The notes below the pieces were generated by a model that saw nothing but the letters and a program-made list of their open reading frames with translations, was not told the origin of the DNA and did no database searches. A DNA stretch of 64,000 bases from Octopus vulgaris. Taxonomy: Eukaryota. Made by a program: the position numbers and the translations under genes. The stretch lies in NCBI GenBank assembly GCA_951406725.2, contig OX597815.1, positions 90,458,001 to 90,522,000 of the forward strand, written 5' to 3'. Numbering within the stretch: the first letter of the stretch is position 1; each line of letters begins with the position of its first letter. Positions 54 through 59,049 of the stretch are shown one piece after another.

Positions 54-257
54 GTAAAACGAAATGAAGTATTGATTGTCTTATTGAATAGATGAAATGT
101 TGAATATAAAATATGAGGGGACTAGTATACTTTCATGCGTTATAGCAGTCTTCAAGGTCCCAGGTTGTGACAGGAGTGTTTCAAAAGACAGAGTTGGAAT
201 TTCTTTGAATAATATATATCCTTCTATAAACAGTCACACAAACCCCTTTTTATTTAT
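54..257 (-). mobile_element. Short (TA)n-flanked segment carrying a hammerhead-like motif (possible Penelope-like terminal repeat)
   Basis: About 200 bp of unique sequence between TA-rich tracts (1-53 and 258-273); contains the minus-strand hammerhead-like fold at 117-161. Confidence 0.45.
117..161 (-). ncRNA. Minimal type I hammerhead-ribozyme-like motif (variant core)
   Basis: Reverse complement reads GGGAC-C-TTGAAGA-CTGC-TATAAC-GCAT-GAAA-GTATAC-TA-GTCCC. Stem I is GGGAC/GTCCC, stem II TGC/GCA, then GAAA, palindromic stem III AGTATACT and a CUA triplet. It has one extra core nucleotide and a C.U mismatch at the base of stem II. Confidence 0.55.
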
Positions 258-664
258 TTATATATATATATATAGCCATGTTGCGAGGAGGCTCAAATTC
301 AACGATAGTCATAAATAGTAGCTCATAATATATTTACTAAAAGTAACTTGGACAAAGGAAAAATGACGGCAGATAGCCATTAACAGGATTCAACCATATA
401 GCTACCATAGCCTTGATGGTCGTGATTTTATTACACCAAAGTGTTTGTCCTATGCTGAAACATTAAAATTAGAATTTTATTCAGACGGACTGGCTTTCAT
501 TACTTACATCTATATTCGTAGATTTCGTAAAAGATATTTATTTTCATACTACCGTATTACTCAATGCTTTTCTATTTACGATACTCATACGAACAAACAT
601 AGATAAGCACATACACATTTTATATATACACACACATATTTCACAAACATAGGTAGCTAGCTAG

Positions 665-800
665 CTAGATAGATAGATACATACATACATACATATGTAT
701 ATACATACGCACGTATACACACACATTCATACATGCATACATACATACATACATACATACATACATACATACATACATACATACATACATACATACATAT
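665..800. repeat. (TAGA)n/(TACA)n microsatellite
   Basis: Directly visible tetranucleotide arrays. Confidence 0.95.
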
Positions 801-3164
801 CTGGGGTTGTGCATATCAGTAGAAAATATACACACAGCCCGTTTTGTACACACTTCTTCCTGTCACTTTCCTCATCGGAAATGCACATTATCAGCGATTG
901 GGTACTTTAAAAACCTAGATGTATTGTGAAAAATATTACTGATAAAATGCATTATTAAAAAGCATCTGTTATTCTTATGAAAATACATAAAGCAGTTTAC
1001 CTCATTGACCTAATTTTCTTGTATATTAATTTATCTTGTTTTTTTATTGACATTAGCATACGTATTGGAAGATTCTCATTCAGGAATTAAAAGATGATAT
1101 AGAATTCTTAAAACACCTAAATGGAAGCAATGATTATACATTAAAACATTTTTCCCCTTAAAAGAAACTATCTCTAAATGATAAATCATGTTCTTTACAA
1201 CTCTCAAAGCACAATCTTGGTTGTATTACGTTACTGAGCGTTAAAGACTGAGTGAGGGAAAACGTTTAAATGGACTGGAATTTAGAGTAAACCTTCGATC
1301 AAGAATTACTTTTAGAATTTCATTTTGGATACAATTTAATGTAGCCATATACGTAAAATTGGTGTTATATATGCAATACACTTGAATGTTAATATTTCAT
1401 AGCCTGCATATTCTAAACCAGAAACCGACGTATATAGGTCTTGCAGTGATTCTTGATTGTAAACGATTCATTTCACTTGCATTACTATTTACAGTTCTAA
1501 ATTCATGAACGAAGTATTTGAAATCCAGTGCCAATATATGGAATGATTTATCTTTCTATGTATGAAAGCAAACTATGTTATATAACTATGAAATAGTTAA
1601 CAACCAGGTTCCTGACCTAAATATCTGTTTGCAGTCACTTTCAGACACTTCTTTATTTAGCTACAGACATTCAAATGCTATTTGTTACTATTTGTATATA
1701 TTGTTATGAGTAGTATTACTGATTATATTTTGCGGCATTTTCGTATGTAGCAGTCAGAAAAGTTAGAGAAAAAGAGCACGGAACTATTGCCAAATTATTT
1801 TATCGGAATTGATAATAAATAATTTGTCTTAATTCAGTTTTAGTATTGTGCAGATGTTGCACACTCAGGTGGAACTATAAACAGAAATAGTCAAAACAGT
1901 TTAGCAGAAGGAATAGAGCAGTATATCAATAAAGTTGGAACGTAAAACATTTTAGAATCAAAAGAAGTTAATGAATATGAATATATGGGGTAATATTATG
2001 TCAGATATAATCAATCAGTTTTCTAACCTGACTGATCTTGTCAAGGAAACACATTCATCACAAGTAAATTACCATTTAGACTGAAATCAAACAGATGGAG
2101 AATTATATTGACGTACATTTTTCTATGAAATCGTTAAGAGAACAGATTTCCGGAAAGAATGGTTATATGGTTAATGACCAGATTTATGATCCCTGTATCC
2201 CTGAAGAAAATGCCATTTAACTCTCAGACAGCTTTGTATTATTTGATATTTATAGGTGAAAATCCAATCTGCCTCACTGGTCTGAATATCAAAAACAAGG
2301 AATTCTAGTTACTCATGTTCAATGTCTTGCTTCCCAACTTTCCTAAATTCAACGTATATTCTTTCCACTTCTTAAACTCCTCTGGTTACCAGCAGCAGTT
2401 TTTCATCACCTATCTCTATAATTGGCATTCTTCACTAGTTTAATGTATACAACTCCTACTAACTCCTACAAACTCTTAATATGTAGCCCGCAGATCAGCT
2501 GTGAACACGCAGGCTTATGACCAAAGGTTTTCCGTCAGTTGCCTTCTCGTTTTGAAAGTATACAGGAATACGCTTTCTAACATATATTTTCATTTAAAGC
2601 CGGAAGAGGTGGGTTTGAAGATTTAACTGCCATTTCTAGCAAGTTGAATGATAACGTAGAACCTCCTTCATTGTCTCATAGTCCGTCAATACTAAACAGC
2701 GCAGAAAGTGAATCTATCCGGGTATCAACTTCCTACACTACTGGTACACGTATTCCCTATATGCTGAACGGATATGAATAATCATTGGGTTTTTTTTAGG
2801 AACCATTTATCCAGGCATTTTCGAACCTCTCCTCATCTGATCACCTCAACGAATCTCACAAATTTTTGGTGACTATCAACTACGTCCGGCTCAGTTGGCA
2901 CGACACTGAGTCTAAGCAGTGACCTTAATAGCATCTGGCTCCCAAGCATCCAGACACCTCTTTTACTTTTGTACTACTACTACTAGAATGCTCACTATCC
3001 TTAAGCATTCCATCGTAGAATATTGGATCTGTAGAGTCTCCCCTATGCTCATGATATTCCTGGATGTATCAATTTGTAACAATTTAAATAGATTAACGGC
3101 ATTTATCTTACGGGTCAAAGATGCTCTATGAAATCATAAGTCTTCCCACTTCATTCACATCCAG

Positions 3165-56400: not shown

Positions 56401-56455
56401 GAACTTTTGAAGTTCACGAGCTGCAAATGCAGTTCTTCTTTCAGGTATCATTTTC
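53420..56455 (-). mobile_element. Near full-length but decayed RTE-clade LINE (APE + RT)
   Basis: APE PERRTAFAARELQKFNSDIVCLS, GDLNAKVG and HWHLIDY; RT EVKQGYVVAPSLF; C-terminal TCHTCERNFRARVGVISH; 3' hairpin ATCCTCGATCTCGAGGGAT. Confidence 0.9.
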
Positions 56456-58856
56456 CATCCAATATATATTCAAAAAATCATTCCATAAGCCAATGTGTTT
56501 CAGTTCTTTCACCCAGTGTAATTGTTTGTTCTTCCTGTACTATTGTGTGCCTCTCATCTCTTTTAAAACACATCACGTGAGAATTAGCATTTTTTCGCTT
56601 CTTTAGATAGTGTCTATTCTATAATAAAGGAGCTAGATTAGTTGATTCATTAAAGTGTAGGACAATATTCCTTATAATATTTGTTTCAGTTATTTCGATC
56701 TGAGGTTAAATTCCACGGAGTCAACTGATCCTATCATGCTTCCAGTGTCGATAACGTGCTTTCACATTGACTTGGATAGTGCAATGTCCAGGTACACGGT
56801 TGTGCCGTGCAACGCATATTGCATGAACTAATTTAAAGCCTTTGGTGATGATTGTTAGCAGCTTTTGCGTACAAAATAGAGATGCTCATGTTATTAAGAC
56901 AGCTATACAATTTTGTAGAAATCAAGACACCTTTTAATATCAATTGACATGAGTGAATAATGCTGAATGTCCAGGACAACACTACTTGTAAATGAAAGCC
57001 AGCTACACTTGATCATAGCTTTCTTCTTTACCGAGTAAGCTCCAATAGTAAGTGTGATTTGCGTCATTATCACAAAATTACACCTTTAATACTGCCAAAA
57101 TAGATCACGAGTAGACGACAGCTTTATATTACTAAAATGAAGTGTACTGTAATCGTAAATCGTTTTCAAATGTGCGTTAAACTACCAGGTGCACGTCAAA
57201 TTATTTTGTTTATGCATTGATGAGAAGCATACGTAATGGGATGAATTACACTGAGTGCAGAGTAAACATCAGGAGATGTACGCACTCTCTTATCGAGTGT
57301 AATTCCGTGCACCTCAATATTCCGCCAGTAACTATGGTGTAGGTGCACGATATTTAGTACTCATGAGAGTTCTCACAATACCTGGTTCTCATGAGACAAT
57401 CGGTATATACTTTCTAAAGTTATATGGGAAAAAACTGTGAGTTTAATACTTCGTATTAAGATTAGTATCATTAAACTACTGAGATGGATTTCAACCAACT
57501 GTAACAATAAGTAAAGCGTGGTGTTGTAGCATATTTAGAATTTAATATTAGCTAAAGGAATTACTGTGGATATTCACACACAGGATACATCATTTATTTT
57601 ACAAAATATTTTATTTTTCCTGTAAAACTTTTTTTACTTTTCAGAAAAACGCTTCCATATTCTCTGCTGTATTCCGACTACTTGAGTGATTCTATCATTT
57701 CTAAAACTGAAATTCTCCTGATAGTTGATACCGCAGAGATTTATATATCCGATATAAATTTTTATATTTTTTATTCAAAATTTTAACATTAATATTTATT
57801 TCCTGTTGTCATTCTTTCCTAACACCTTATGAATTCTAGAGACGCTGAGAAGAAGGGAAGGTCTGTCTCCAATTTCTTTCCAAATCTTATTAATAGCCAG
57901 CTAGGTTTCGACACGCCTATTTGTTCATATACCAATCACATAATTCTAATATATTTAACATTACTTCCAATGAAATATAGTCAACTATACATTTCCTGGT
58001 AGTGTCAATCAAGTAGCTGAATTTAGATGATGACAATCAGAACGAGGTCATGCATTTAAATTTCTTTCTACCACTGAAAGAAGGCTCTTCACAAAATAGG
58101 ACAAATTGATGTAAATTAAGATACCGAGAAATTAACCTATGCTATGTTTCGGTAATATTTAATGAGTCAATACTAAATTAAGTTTCTCGATTTCATTTTT
58201 AAGGATTTAATAAATTACATCCCCATCCCCTATTTTATAAACCACAATTGACACGCTAAAAACACTTTATTACGGGCAAGTAGTCATATGAATCCCTTAT
58301 TTACATTTACTTTTTCTTATAGCAAGTAGCTGCAACAATATCTCAGGATATAAACAGAAGTTCAAATGTGAAACTCTACCCGCAAATCTCGCTACGTGTT
58401 GCATAATAGATTTTTATACTGTACTATGATGCATCATCTAAATTGTAAGGAATATCTTATGATAAACAATACATGTTTTATCCCAACATTGTGATGCTTA
58501 ATCGAATATGCGTAGAGTTTATAGTTATTTATGTTCACTCCATTTAAAAACGTTGCTAAAACAGATACTCCAAATTGCATAATAGTGCATTCCTAGGCAA
58601 CAAATCACATAATGACTAATCATATACGTCAGATACTTGAAATGTAAAGTATGAAATGCTTCATAATAAACAATATAGTTTCAGCCGCCCTTGTGAAGTA
58701 TAGACGAATATATTGGGTAAAATTTTGTGCAGTTCGTTAATGAAGAAATATACTCTGTCTATTTCAACACCAAGTGATAGATTGAAACCATTGCCCAAGG
58801 TAGTACTAAAACAGAATTGAATTAGGCTTGGCGAAGTCTAGATATATATATATATA

Positions 58857-59049
58857 TTGCCTATGAATAGCCATAACCTATAATTCTCATCATAGGGAGA
58901 AGTAGTGTGAACGTGATCGCTGATGAAATTCCAAGTAGAATGGAAAGTGATTAGAACAACTATTCTTTTTTTTCCTGTCCAGTGAGAGTCAAACCCACTT
59001 CTGTTCACATATGACCACACACATTCTGTTATACATCTCAACGATGGTT
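58857..59049 (+). mobile_element. Short (TA)n-flanked segment with an incomplete hammerhead-like motif
   Basis: TGATCG-CTGATGA-A-ATTC-CAAGTA-GAAT-G-GAAA-G-TGATTA (58914-58953); stem III and the cleavage triplet are missing; (TA)n on both sides. Confidence 0.35.

What the first reader, a model, noticed from the sequence alone, without database searches (positions are those of the whole stretch)
54..59049. Recurring pattern: five unrelated short (TA)n-bordered segments each carry a hammerhead-like fold
Seen: motifs at 117-161(-), 28720-28823(+), 48871-48910(-), 50030-50101(+) and 58914-58953(+) share no obvious primary sequence. Each has CUGANGA-like and GAAA-like strands closed by a stem I and lies about 40-100 nt upstream of a (TA)n junction. 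Four have a palindromic or near-palindromic stem III (AGTATACT, ACAGTTG, ACGT, ACTCAGAGT). Inference: several ribozyme-bearing retroelement families target (TA)n in this genome, leaving roughly one relic per 13 kb here. Inside host introns, such relics could cut nascent transcripts. Only two of the five are convincing individually.
Basis: inference. Interest (0 to 1): 0.75.

Follow-up and report, generated by a model that had tools for sequence, protein, structure and literature searches.

The report
Hammerhead relics of Penelope-like retroelements
Four of the five short segments are leftover copies of different jumping-element families that carry a hammerhead-shaped, likely self-cutting RNA motif and mostly land in TA repeats, which is a known arrangement; the one odd point is a very abundant lineage with intact young members whose motif has a changed core letter that is predicted to slow cutting, and this is untested.

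Summary
The pattern is real and mostly known biology. Motifs 1, 3 and 4 are 5'-truncated 3' ends of three Penelope-like element (PLE) families: two have a Neptune/Nematis-type linker and one is Hydra-like. Each was traced to a GIY-YIG ORF, and most family copies end at (TA)n. Motif 2 was mis-parsed: it is a decayed canonical hammerhead in an old ~310-nt tandem repeat (retrozyme-like). Motif 5 is single-copy, lacks stem III and is unresolved. Strict minimal hammerheads numbered 31 in a systematic 800-kb genome sample, against 0.8 in shuffles. Family cores are canonical for motifs 2 and 4 only. Motif 1 has a family-wide extra U. The motif-3 lineage has U at position 6 (20,645 matches against 304 with A). 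In that lineage only N7 and H17 vary across subfamilies, and the youngest subfamily is an intact 4.5-kb RT+GIY-YIG element in seamless head-to-tail copies. Cutting is untested, and 5' ends do not pile up at the cut site. Cutting of host introns is unsupported. This scan already noted the U6 variant on other DNA.

The parts
1..184 (-). Motif-1 element: 5'-truncated 3' end of a C-terminal-GIY-YIG PLE; it continues about 49 bases left of the window and ends at (TA)n
   Evidence: L137 has the GIY-YIG ORF directly upstream of this UTR; L255, L165
118..161 (-). Hammerhead-like motif 1: 5-bp stem I, core with an extra U (C3 U4 +U G5 A6 A7 G8 A9), 3-bp stem II with mismatched closing pair, GAAA, palindromic stem III AGUAUACU, predicted cut after 123
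   Evidence: sequence; family-wide
184..262 (+). Inverted 3'-terminal fragment of the same element joined to its 5' end (PLE-type inverted partner), followed by (TA)n; the right boundary is approximate
28405..28532 (-). Inverted partner fragment of the motif-2 repeat, next to the (TA)n/(TG)n tract at about 28313-28404
   Evidence: nhmmer E=4e-8
28490..28920 (+). About 1.3 head-to-tail units of an old ~310-nt non-coding tandem repeat (retrozyme-like), ending at TATATAT
28718..28762 (+). Motif 2, corrected parse: 6-bp stem I, CUGAUGA (28724-28730), extra A, damaged stem II, GAAA (28745-28748), decayed palindromic stem III, predicted cut after 28756
48777..48965 (-). Motif-3 element: 189-nt 5'-truncated 3' end of an RT+GIY-YIG PLE, flanked by (TA)n on both sides
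48872..48907 (-). Hammerhead-like motif 3: CUGU-A-GA core (U at position 6), extra A, stem II broken in this copy (4 bp in the family), GAAA, palindromic ACGU stem III, predicted cut after 48876
50023..50130 (+). Motif-4 element: 108-nt 5'-truncated 3' end of a Hydra-like PLE between (TA)68 and a further TA tract
50034..50096 (+). Hammerhead motif 4: 6-bp stem I, canonical CUGAAGA (50040-50046), stem II with one extra C, GAAA (50078-50081), near-palindromic stem III, predicted cut after 50090
   Evidence: (1,828 pattern matches)
58858..59048 (+). Single-copy 190-nt segment between two short TA runs; origin unresolved
58914..58953 (+). Motif 5: 6-bp stem I, CUGAUGA, 4-bp stem II and GAAA, but only one base where stem III and the cut site should be; probably a deletion relic

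Best explanation
Motifs 1, 3 and 4 are short 5'-truncated tails of three Penelope-like retroelement families, and motif 2 is a decayed piece of an old ~310-nt tandem repeat that was likely copied by Penelope-type enzymes; each family carries a minimal type I hammerhead that is predicted to cut only as a dimer, so these lone relics are likely inert. Mechanism, step by step. (1) Shown: the full element of the motif-3 lineage is a 4.48-kb unit with one RT+GIY-YIG ORF and one hammerhead, present in seamless head-to-tail copies whose junction holds a fixed short TA-rich word about 115 nt after the hammerhead. (2) Inferred from Cervera 2014: two hammerheads in one precursor pair through the palindromic stem III, cut, and the unit RNA may circularise. 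(3) Inferred: the endonuclease nicks (TA)n, the internal TA-rich word anneals there and primes reverse transcription, which reads back through the uncut or re-joined hammerhead. (4) Shown: synthesis stops at scattered places, mostly early, which leaves 100-200-nt hammerhead-bearing stubs in TA tracts, often with an inverted partner. In the motif-3 lineage A6 became U; the fold stayed constrained, so it probably still has a job, most likely slow or assisted cutting. Motif 5 is probably a very old relic with stem III deleted.
For: Family sizes: 1,993, 1,511 and 2,457 first-look candidates for motifs 4, 1 and 3, and 1,828, 571 and 20,645 exact pattern matches. ORF links: GIY-YIG directly upstream of motif 1 in L137 and L052/L255; RT+EN upstream of motif 3 in L253 and in a sister subfamily with a 1,211-aa frame hitting RVT_1 and, weakly, GIY-YIG; a Hydra-like ORF with a CxCX5C linker upstream of motif 4 in L251/L252. 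14 of 20 long copies carry two hammerheads 4.44-4.58 kb apart with the same junction word. Inverted partners are common. Motif 2: same-strand spacing of 255-343 nt in 5 distinct loci (one further spacing of 484), and only one opposite-strand RT scrap in 48 loci. Enrichment over shuffles is about 40-fold. U6 lineage: among 26 copies picked by tail sequence only, the 36-nt block has shared non-CpG variation only at N7 and H17, against 22 of 70 tail columns (Fisher p=0.003 with all 36 columns).
Against: No cleavage, circular RNA or expression was observed. 5' ends do not pile up at the predicted cut site: 1 of 30 for motif 4, 0 of 30 for motif 3 and 0 of 20 long copies. This fits circles and uncut templates equally and gives no sign of cutting. 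Loop II is as frozen as the core in the U6 lineage, which a bare hammerhead would not require. U6 and the extra U break the canonical core, and natural A6 changes give low activity in Mg2+. Motif 2 has no ORF link, so its mobilisation by PLE enzymes rests on insertion shape. Motif 5 has no relatives. Clade names rest on linker motifs and a by-eye comparison, not on a tree with reference proteins. For motif 1 only the endonuclease end was tied with certainty to the UTR.
Confidence: 0.82

Rival explanations
1. The hammerheads of the motif-1 and motif-3 lineages are catalytically dead. The fold is kept as a binding or priming signal for the element's protein, and copies are made from uncut tandem read-through transcripts.
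For: U6 and the extra U disrupt the conserved core, and A6C lowers Mg2+ activity strongly. Loop II is conserved along with the core. No copies start at the cut site. Craig 2021 reports very successful Naiads without canonical hammerheads.
Against: The only two freely varying positions in the 36-nt block are the two that hammerhead chemistry leaves free, N7 and H17, and H17 was never G in 26 copies. More-than-unit copies, one with over two units, are easier to regenerate from a circle.
Confidence: 0.4
2. The relics are active as monomers or trans-dimers in host introns and cut nascent transcripts.
For: Tens of thousands of near-intact copies exist. Palindromic stem III self-duplexes of motifs 1 and 4 are predicted at about -7 kcal/mol. 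Inverted or tandem partners sometimes put two motifs close together. A preprint abstract reports exclusion of retrozymes from introns in vertebrates.
Against: Single minimal PLE hammerheads showed no detectable cleavage in Cervera 2014. The window copies of motifs 2 and 3 have broken stem II and motif 5 lacks a cut site. No host gene was identified in the window.
Confidence: 0.08
3. The motifs are chance matches in AT-rich, microsatellite-rich DNA, picked out by eye.
For: Four of five do not fold better than shuffles and fail a strict descriptor. Motif 5 is single-copy.
Against: Four motifs belong to repeat families with conserved or covarying hammerhead anatomy. A descriptor loosened just enough for motif 5 hits 1.3% of 300 shuffled windows, though it was fitted post hoc. 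This rival remains plausible for motif 5 alone (about 0.25).
Confidence: 0.03

Closest known systems
Minimal hammerheads (min-HHR) in PLE pseudo-LTRs; Cervera and De la Pena 2014, PMC4209133 (parts 1-2 of 4 read, supplement passages; supplement file 1 not searchable)
   Same: Type I order, short stem I, extra base after A9, palindromic 15.2-16.2/loop 3, mostly single motifs on truncated PLEs, U3-A8 covariant also present, predicted dimer action
   Different: Octopus did not appear in the searched supplement. Fixed U6 (motif-3 lineage) and an extra U in the uridine turn (motif 1) are not among the variants I read there.
Hydra clade PLEs, e.g. Hydra-1_Obim; Craig et al. 2021, PMC8557442 (passages, section 11, supplement rows)
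   Same: Motif-4 family: C-terminal EN, CxCX5C linker, (TA)n target, hammerhead with CUGAAGAG core and near-palindromic stem III, protein visibly similar to Hydra-1_Obim
   Different: It is a different family: its motif words are absent from that supplement. RWK and DKT could not be read in the broken copies.
Neptune/Nematis-type C-terminal-EN PLEs (as described in Craig et al. 2021)
   Same: Motif-1 and motif-3 families: CX4CXXC linker before GIY-YIG; DKG motif seen in the motif-3 lineage; tandem pseudo-LTRs; inverted 5' partners
   Different: The exact clade was not resolved (no reference tree), and the hammerhead cores are non-canonical.
Metazoan non-LTR retrozymes; Cervera and de la Pena 2020, PMC7229834 (passages, section 14); Li, Clavereau and Pollet 2026 preprint 10.64898/2026.07.22.740005 (part 1 of 5)
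   Same: Motif-2 family: non-coding tandem unit of about 255-343 nt, one type I hammerhead per unit with 6-bp helix I and 4-bp helix II
   Different: It is old (70-85% identity between copies) and circular RNA was not shown. Octopus is not mentioned in the main text of the 2020 paper.
Natural A6C core variant (phage Bcep176); Perreault 2011, PMC3088659; PMC7151607 (passages)
   Same: Change at core position 6 in a natural hammerhead, with low Mg2+ activity reported
   Different: Here the change is A6U, it is fixed in over 20,000 copies of an animal retroelement lineage, and it is untested.

Membership tests
PLE minimal type I hammerhead | Core CUGANGA (or covariant 3-8 pair): motifs 2, 4, 5 | tested here: met
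   Window sequence; family majority for motif 2; 1,828 matches for motif 4
PLE minimal type I hammerhead | Core CUGANGA: motifs 1 and 3 | tested here: not met
   Motif 1 has an extra U. The motif-3 lineage has U6 in 20,645 versus A6 in 304 matches, and in 24 of 26 tail-selected copies. They work like min-HHRs in anatomy but are filed as variants.
PLE minimal type I hammerhead | GAAA followed by palindromic stem III, U16.1 and H17 (not G): motifs 1-4 | tested here: met
PLE minimal type I hammerhead | Stem III, U16.1 and H17: motif 5 | tested here: not met
   Only one base lies between GAAA and stem I
PLE minimal type I hammerhead | G10.1-C11.1 closing pair of stem II | tested here: inconclusive
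   Met in the motif-3 family. One extra base before G12 in motifs 2 and 4. Mismatch in motif 1.
PLE minimal type I hammerhead | Self-cleavage as a dimer | not testable with these tools
   Needs an in vitro assay; genomic 5'-end test gave no pile-up
Penelope-like element (EN+) | RT plus GIY-YIG ORF upstream of the hammerhead UTR (motif-3 and motif-4 families) | tested here: met
   motif 3; motif 4; Pfam support weak, E=0.011
Penelope-like element (EN+) | RT plus GIY-YIG ORF (motif-1 family) | tested here: inconclusive
   GIY-YIG is contiguous with the UTR in 2 loci. RT pieces upstream in L165 may belong to a neighbouring copy.
Penelope-like element (EN+) | Partial tandem (pseudo-LTR) and inverted 5'-truncated partners | tested here: met
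   14 of 20 long copies are tandem; inverted partners
Hydra clade | CxCX5C linker, C-terminal EN, (TA)n target (motif-4 family) | tested here: met
   (13 of 17 long tails end in TA)
Hydra clade | RWK and DKT motifs; phylogenetic placement | tested here: inconclusive
   The copies read are truncated or frameshifted there; no reference tree was built
Neptune/Nematis-type PLE | CX2-5CxxC linker between RT and EN (motif-1 and motif-3 families) | tested here: met
Neptune/Nematis-type PLE | Placement in an RT tree with reference clades | not tested
   No reference proteins were available as usable sequences
Naiad clade | GIY-YIG N-terminal to RT | tested here: not met
   EN is the last domain before the UTR in all three traced families
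Non-LTR retrozyme | Non-coding tandem unit of 170-400 nt with one type I hammerhead each (motif-2 family) | tested here: met
Non-LTR retrozyme | Expression as circular RNA | not testable with these tools
   No raw RNA reads were available for this family

The most novel reading that the evidence does not exclude
The U6 hammerhead is a working natural core variant. A recently active, autonomous 4.5-kb Penelope-like element cuts and circularises its RNA with a CUGU-N-GA core, kept under selection through at least four successive subfamilies, and primes rolling reverse transcription at (TA)n from an internal TA word. It would be a clean system for asking whether PLEs replicate through circles and how much ribozyme speed they need.
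Probability: 0.35. Interest if true: 0.6.

Novelty: new variant of a known kind. Interest (0 to 1): 0.38.

Why it matters
The part with value is the motif-3 lineage. The role of hammerheads in PLEs is still described as unclear (Craig 2021). This lineage offers an older A6 subfamily, a ladder of U6 subfamilies and near-identical intact young copies, so the question can be tested with matched natural sequences. If U6 cuts, the accepted core is wider and descriptor searches miss large families. If it does not, a very successful PLE lineage keeps a hammerhead shape without catalysis.

Tried and rejected
Rfam found no hammerhead model in the window or in six family loci, including a clear tandem array, so Rfam is blind to these motifs. 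Motif 5: a DNA search, two patterns and nhmmer over all held loci found only itself; a type III reading was checked by eye and did not fit. Naiad origin was rejected for motifs 1, 3 and 4 (EN is C-terminal), and six motif words were absent from the Craig supplement. A PLE ORF for motif 2 was not found in 48 loci, some of them overlapping. The cut-site 5'-end test was negative; a few starts at 0/+1 among 95 motif-4 fragments (4 of 95) came from a biased set and were not confirmed. Sequencing runs: no RNA holder listed. Contigs of four RNA-guess runs on 52700-62500 gave one 216-nt piece and no joints, which is uninformative about a host gene. One fuzzy-match script timed out. Lunse et al. 2017 on PLE hammerhead variants is not held and may already list position-6 variants. 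Paper searches for A6U or CUGU cores in hammerheads (also 22, 102; listings only) returned nothing relevant. The tree is midpoint-rooted, left out 2 of 52 rows and was enriched for A6 copies by design, so 'A6 ancestral' is inferred from branch lengths and related families, not from a tested root.

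
Full report
Setting. The window is G000:C2:90458001-90522000 of a 2.8-Gb animal genome, AT-rich and full of microsatellites. That it is octopus-like is my inference from the likeness of its elements to published octopus PLEs.

Observation. The five motifs are present and mutually unrelated. Only motif 4 passes a strict descriptor and folds better than shuffles. Rfam has no matching model. To test chance, I took 80 systematically spaced 10-kb stretches. 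A strict minimal-hammerhead descriptor gave 31 hits, against 0.77 (max 3) in 30 shuffles that keep microsatellites in place, and 1 in reversed sequence. Eleven of the 31 are of tandem-array type. TA proximity is 8 of 31 (p=0.09), or 8 of 20 without those (p=0.007, post hoc), against a 15% background.

Motif 4 (50034-50096, +). This is a family of at least 1,828 pattern matches with a canonical core. Copies have variable 5' ends, inverted partners and two 3' end points, and 28 of 30 fetched copies lie before (TA)n. Extension upstream reaches an RT and EN frame in L251 and L252 with a CxCX5C linker, the Hydra signature given by Craig 2021. That paper's supplement lists Hydra-1_Obim with (TA)n preference and a similar hammerhead. 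A relative in the sample (L205) shows compensatory stem I changes.

Motif 1 (118-161, -). A GIY-YIG frame with a CX4CXXC linker runs directly into this UTR in L137 and L052/L255. The core carries an extra U in nearly all copies read: 571 matches with it, 0 for a longer pattern without it. A sister family (L113) has the canonical core.

Motif 3 (48872-48907, -). It is linked to an RT+GIY-YIG frame in L253. Genome-wide, the pattern with U6 has 20,645 matches and that with A6 has 304. Among the first 100 listed U6 matches, N7 is about 27 A, 19 C, 15 G and 39 T (counted by eye). In 26 copies chosen by tail sequence alone (4 of 30 dropped as truncated), shared non-CpG variation in the 36-nt block falls only at N7 and H17, against 22 of 70 tail columns. 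A flank-only tree shows a long-branched clade that is mostly A6, and a ladder of U6 subfamilies ending in copies 98-99% identical, with scattered A6 copies inside it that look like back-mutations (midpoint root only). The youngest subfamily gave 150 of 150 scored EN matches at 99-100% identity without stops, from 17,545 candidates. 19 of 20 of those loci show the U6 motif downstream, almost all followed by (TA)n. Twenty long copies define a 4.48-kb unit with a frame of up to 1,214 aa. Fourteen are seamless head-to-tail tandems with an identical short TA-rich junction about 115 nt after the cut site, and their 5' ends are scattered. The window copy belongs to a sister subfamily and has two extra changes that break stem II.

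Motif 2 (28718-28762, +). In 48 family hits (some from overlapping loci) the majority is a canonical type I hammerhead with 6-bp stem I, CUGAUGA, extra A, 4-bp stem II, GAAA, palindromic stem III and C17. The family is an old (70-85%) non-coding tandem repeat with same-strand spacing of 255-343 nt and frequent inverted partners, matching non-LTR retrozymes as described for mussel. The window holds 1.3 units plus an inverted piece. TA flanks are not general in this family.

Motif 5 (58914-58953, +). It has a perfect CUGAUGA, GAAA and stems I and II, but no stem III or cut site, and no relatives. A descriptor fitted to it hits 1.3% of 300 shuffled windows. I rate it about 75% a deletion relic.

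Mechanism. Shown: family membership, ORF links, tandem and inverted insertion shapes, TA-rich 3' junctions, scattered 5' ends. Inferred from Cervera 2014 and a 2019 review: dimer-dependent cutting of a tandem precursor and possibly a circular template. Inferred here: priming at (TA)n by the internal TA word. Against any strong claim of cutting, copies do not begin at the cut site (1 of 30, 0 of 30, 0 of 20). Templates therefore carried an uncut or re-joined hammerhead, and the data cannot tell these apart. Lone relics are expected to be inert, and no host gene was identified (one search was uninformative).

Comparison and novelty. Minimal hammerheads on truncated PLEs, their palindromic stem III, the U3-A8 variant and (TA)n targeting are in print. 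A 2026 octopus repeat paper counts Penelope-like families but does not mention hammerheads in its main text. I found no report of a fixed A6U core, but the key paper on PLE hammerhead variants could not be read. Known A6C variants are slow in Mg2+. Earlier notes of this scan reached the same reading of U6 on other DNA; they are not independent support. Verdict: a known kind of system, with one untested core variant in a large lineage with intact young members; interest 0.38.

Noticed in passing
L170:3082-4512 and inverted copies (G000:C1:~20,003,000); also L202, L204: Young tandem arrays of about 359-nt period with one strict hammerhead per unit; one family has the C3-G8 core and a related one U3-A8. 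Retrozyme-like; noted before by this scan.
   Followed up: partly
L166:1245-3587 (G000:C16:~20,837,000): Another young PLE family with many intact 781-aa RT+GIY-YIG frames, an upstream 327-aa frame of unknown kind, a long repetitive 3' UTR and a U3-A8 hammerhead-like motif near L166:4565.
   Followed up: partly
L184, L212, L220 (G3-C8); L130 (A3-U8); L120 and relatives (U3-A8): All four Watson-Crick versions of the 3-8 core pair occur in hammerheads of this one genome.
   Followed up: no
L113, about 615 nt after the GIY-YIG match: Sister family of motif 1 with canonical CUGAAGA but G at the cut-site position in this copy.
   Followed up: no
window 6783-9148 (+): Two long frames (566 and 234 aa including a leading repeat) that look like a non-LTR reverse transcriptase element beside an (AAT)n tract; family label by eye, not tested.
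   Followed up: no
window 41815-43068 (-) and 46371-46673 (-): Frames resembling a LINE ORF1 region and a mariner-type transposase fragment; labels recalled, not tested.
   Followed up: no
window 9382-9630 and 41659-41799: Tandem repeats of 83 bp x3 (97% matches) and 71 bp x2 (92%).
   Followed up: no
L412 (G000:C6:117,389,500-117,399,000): A U6 element insertion of more than two seamless units, as rolling-circle or template-jump copying would give.
   Followed up: partly
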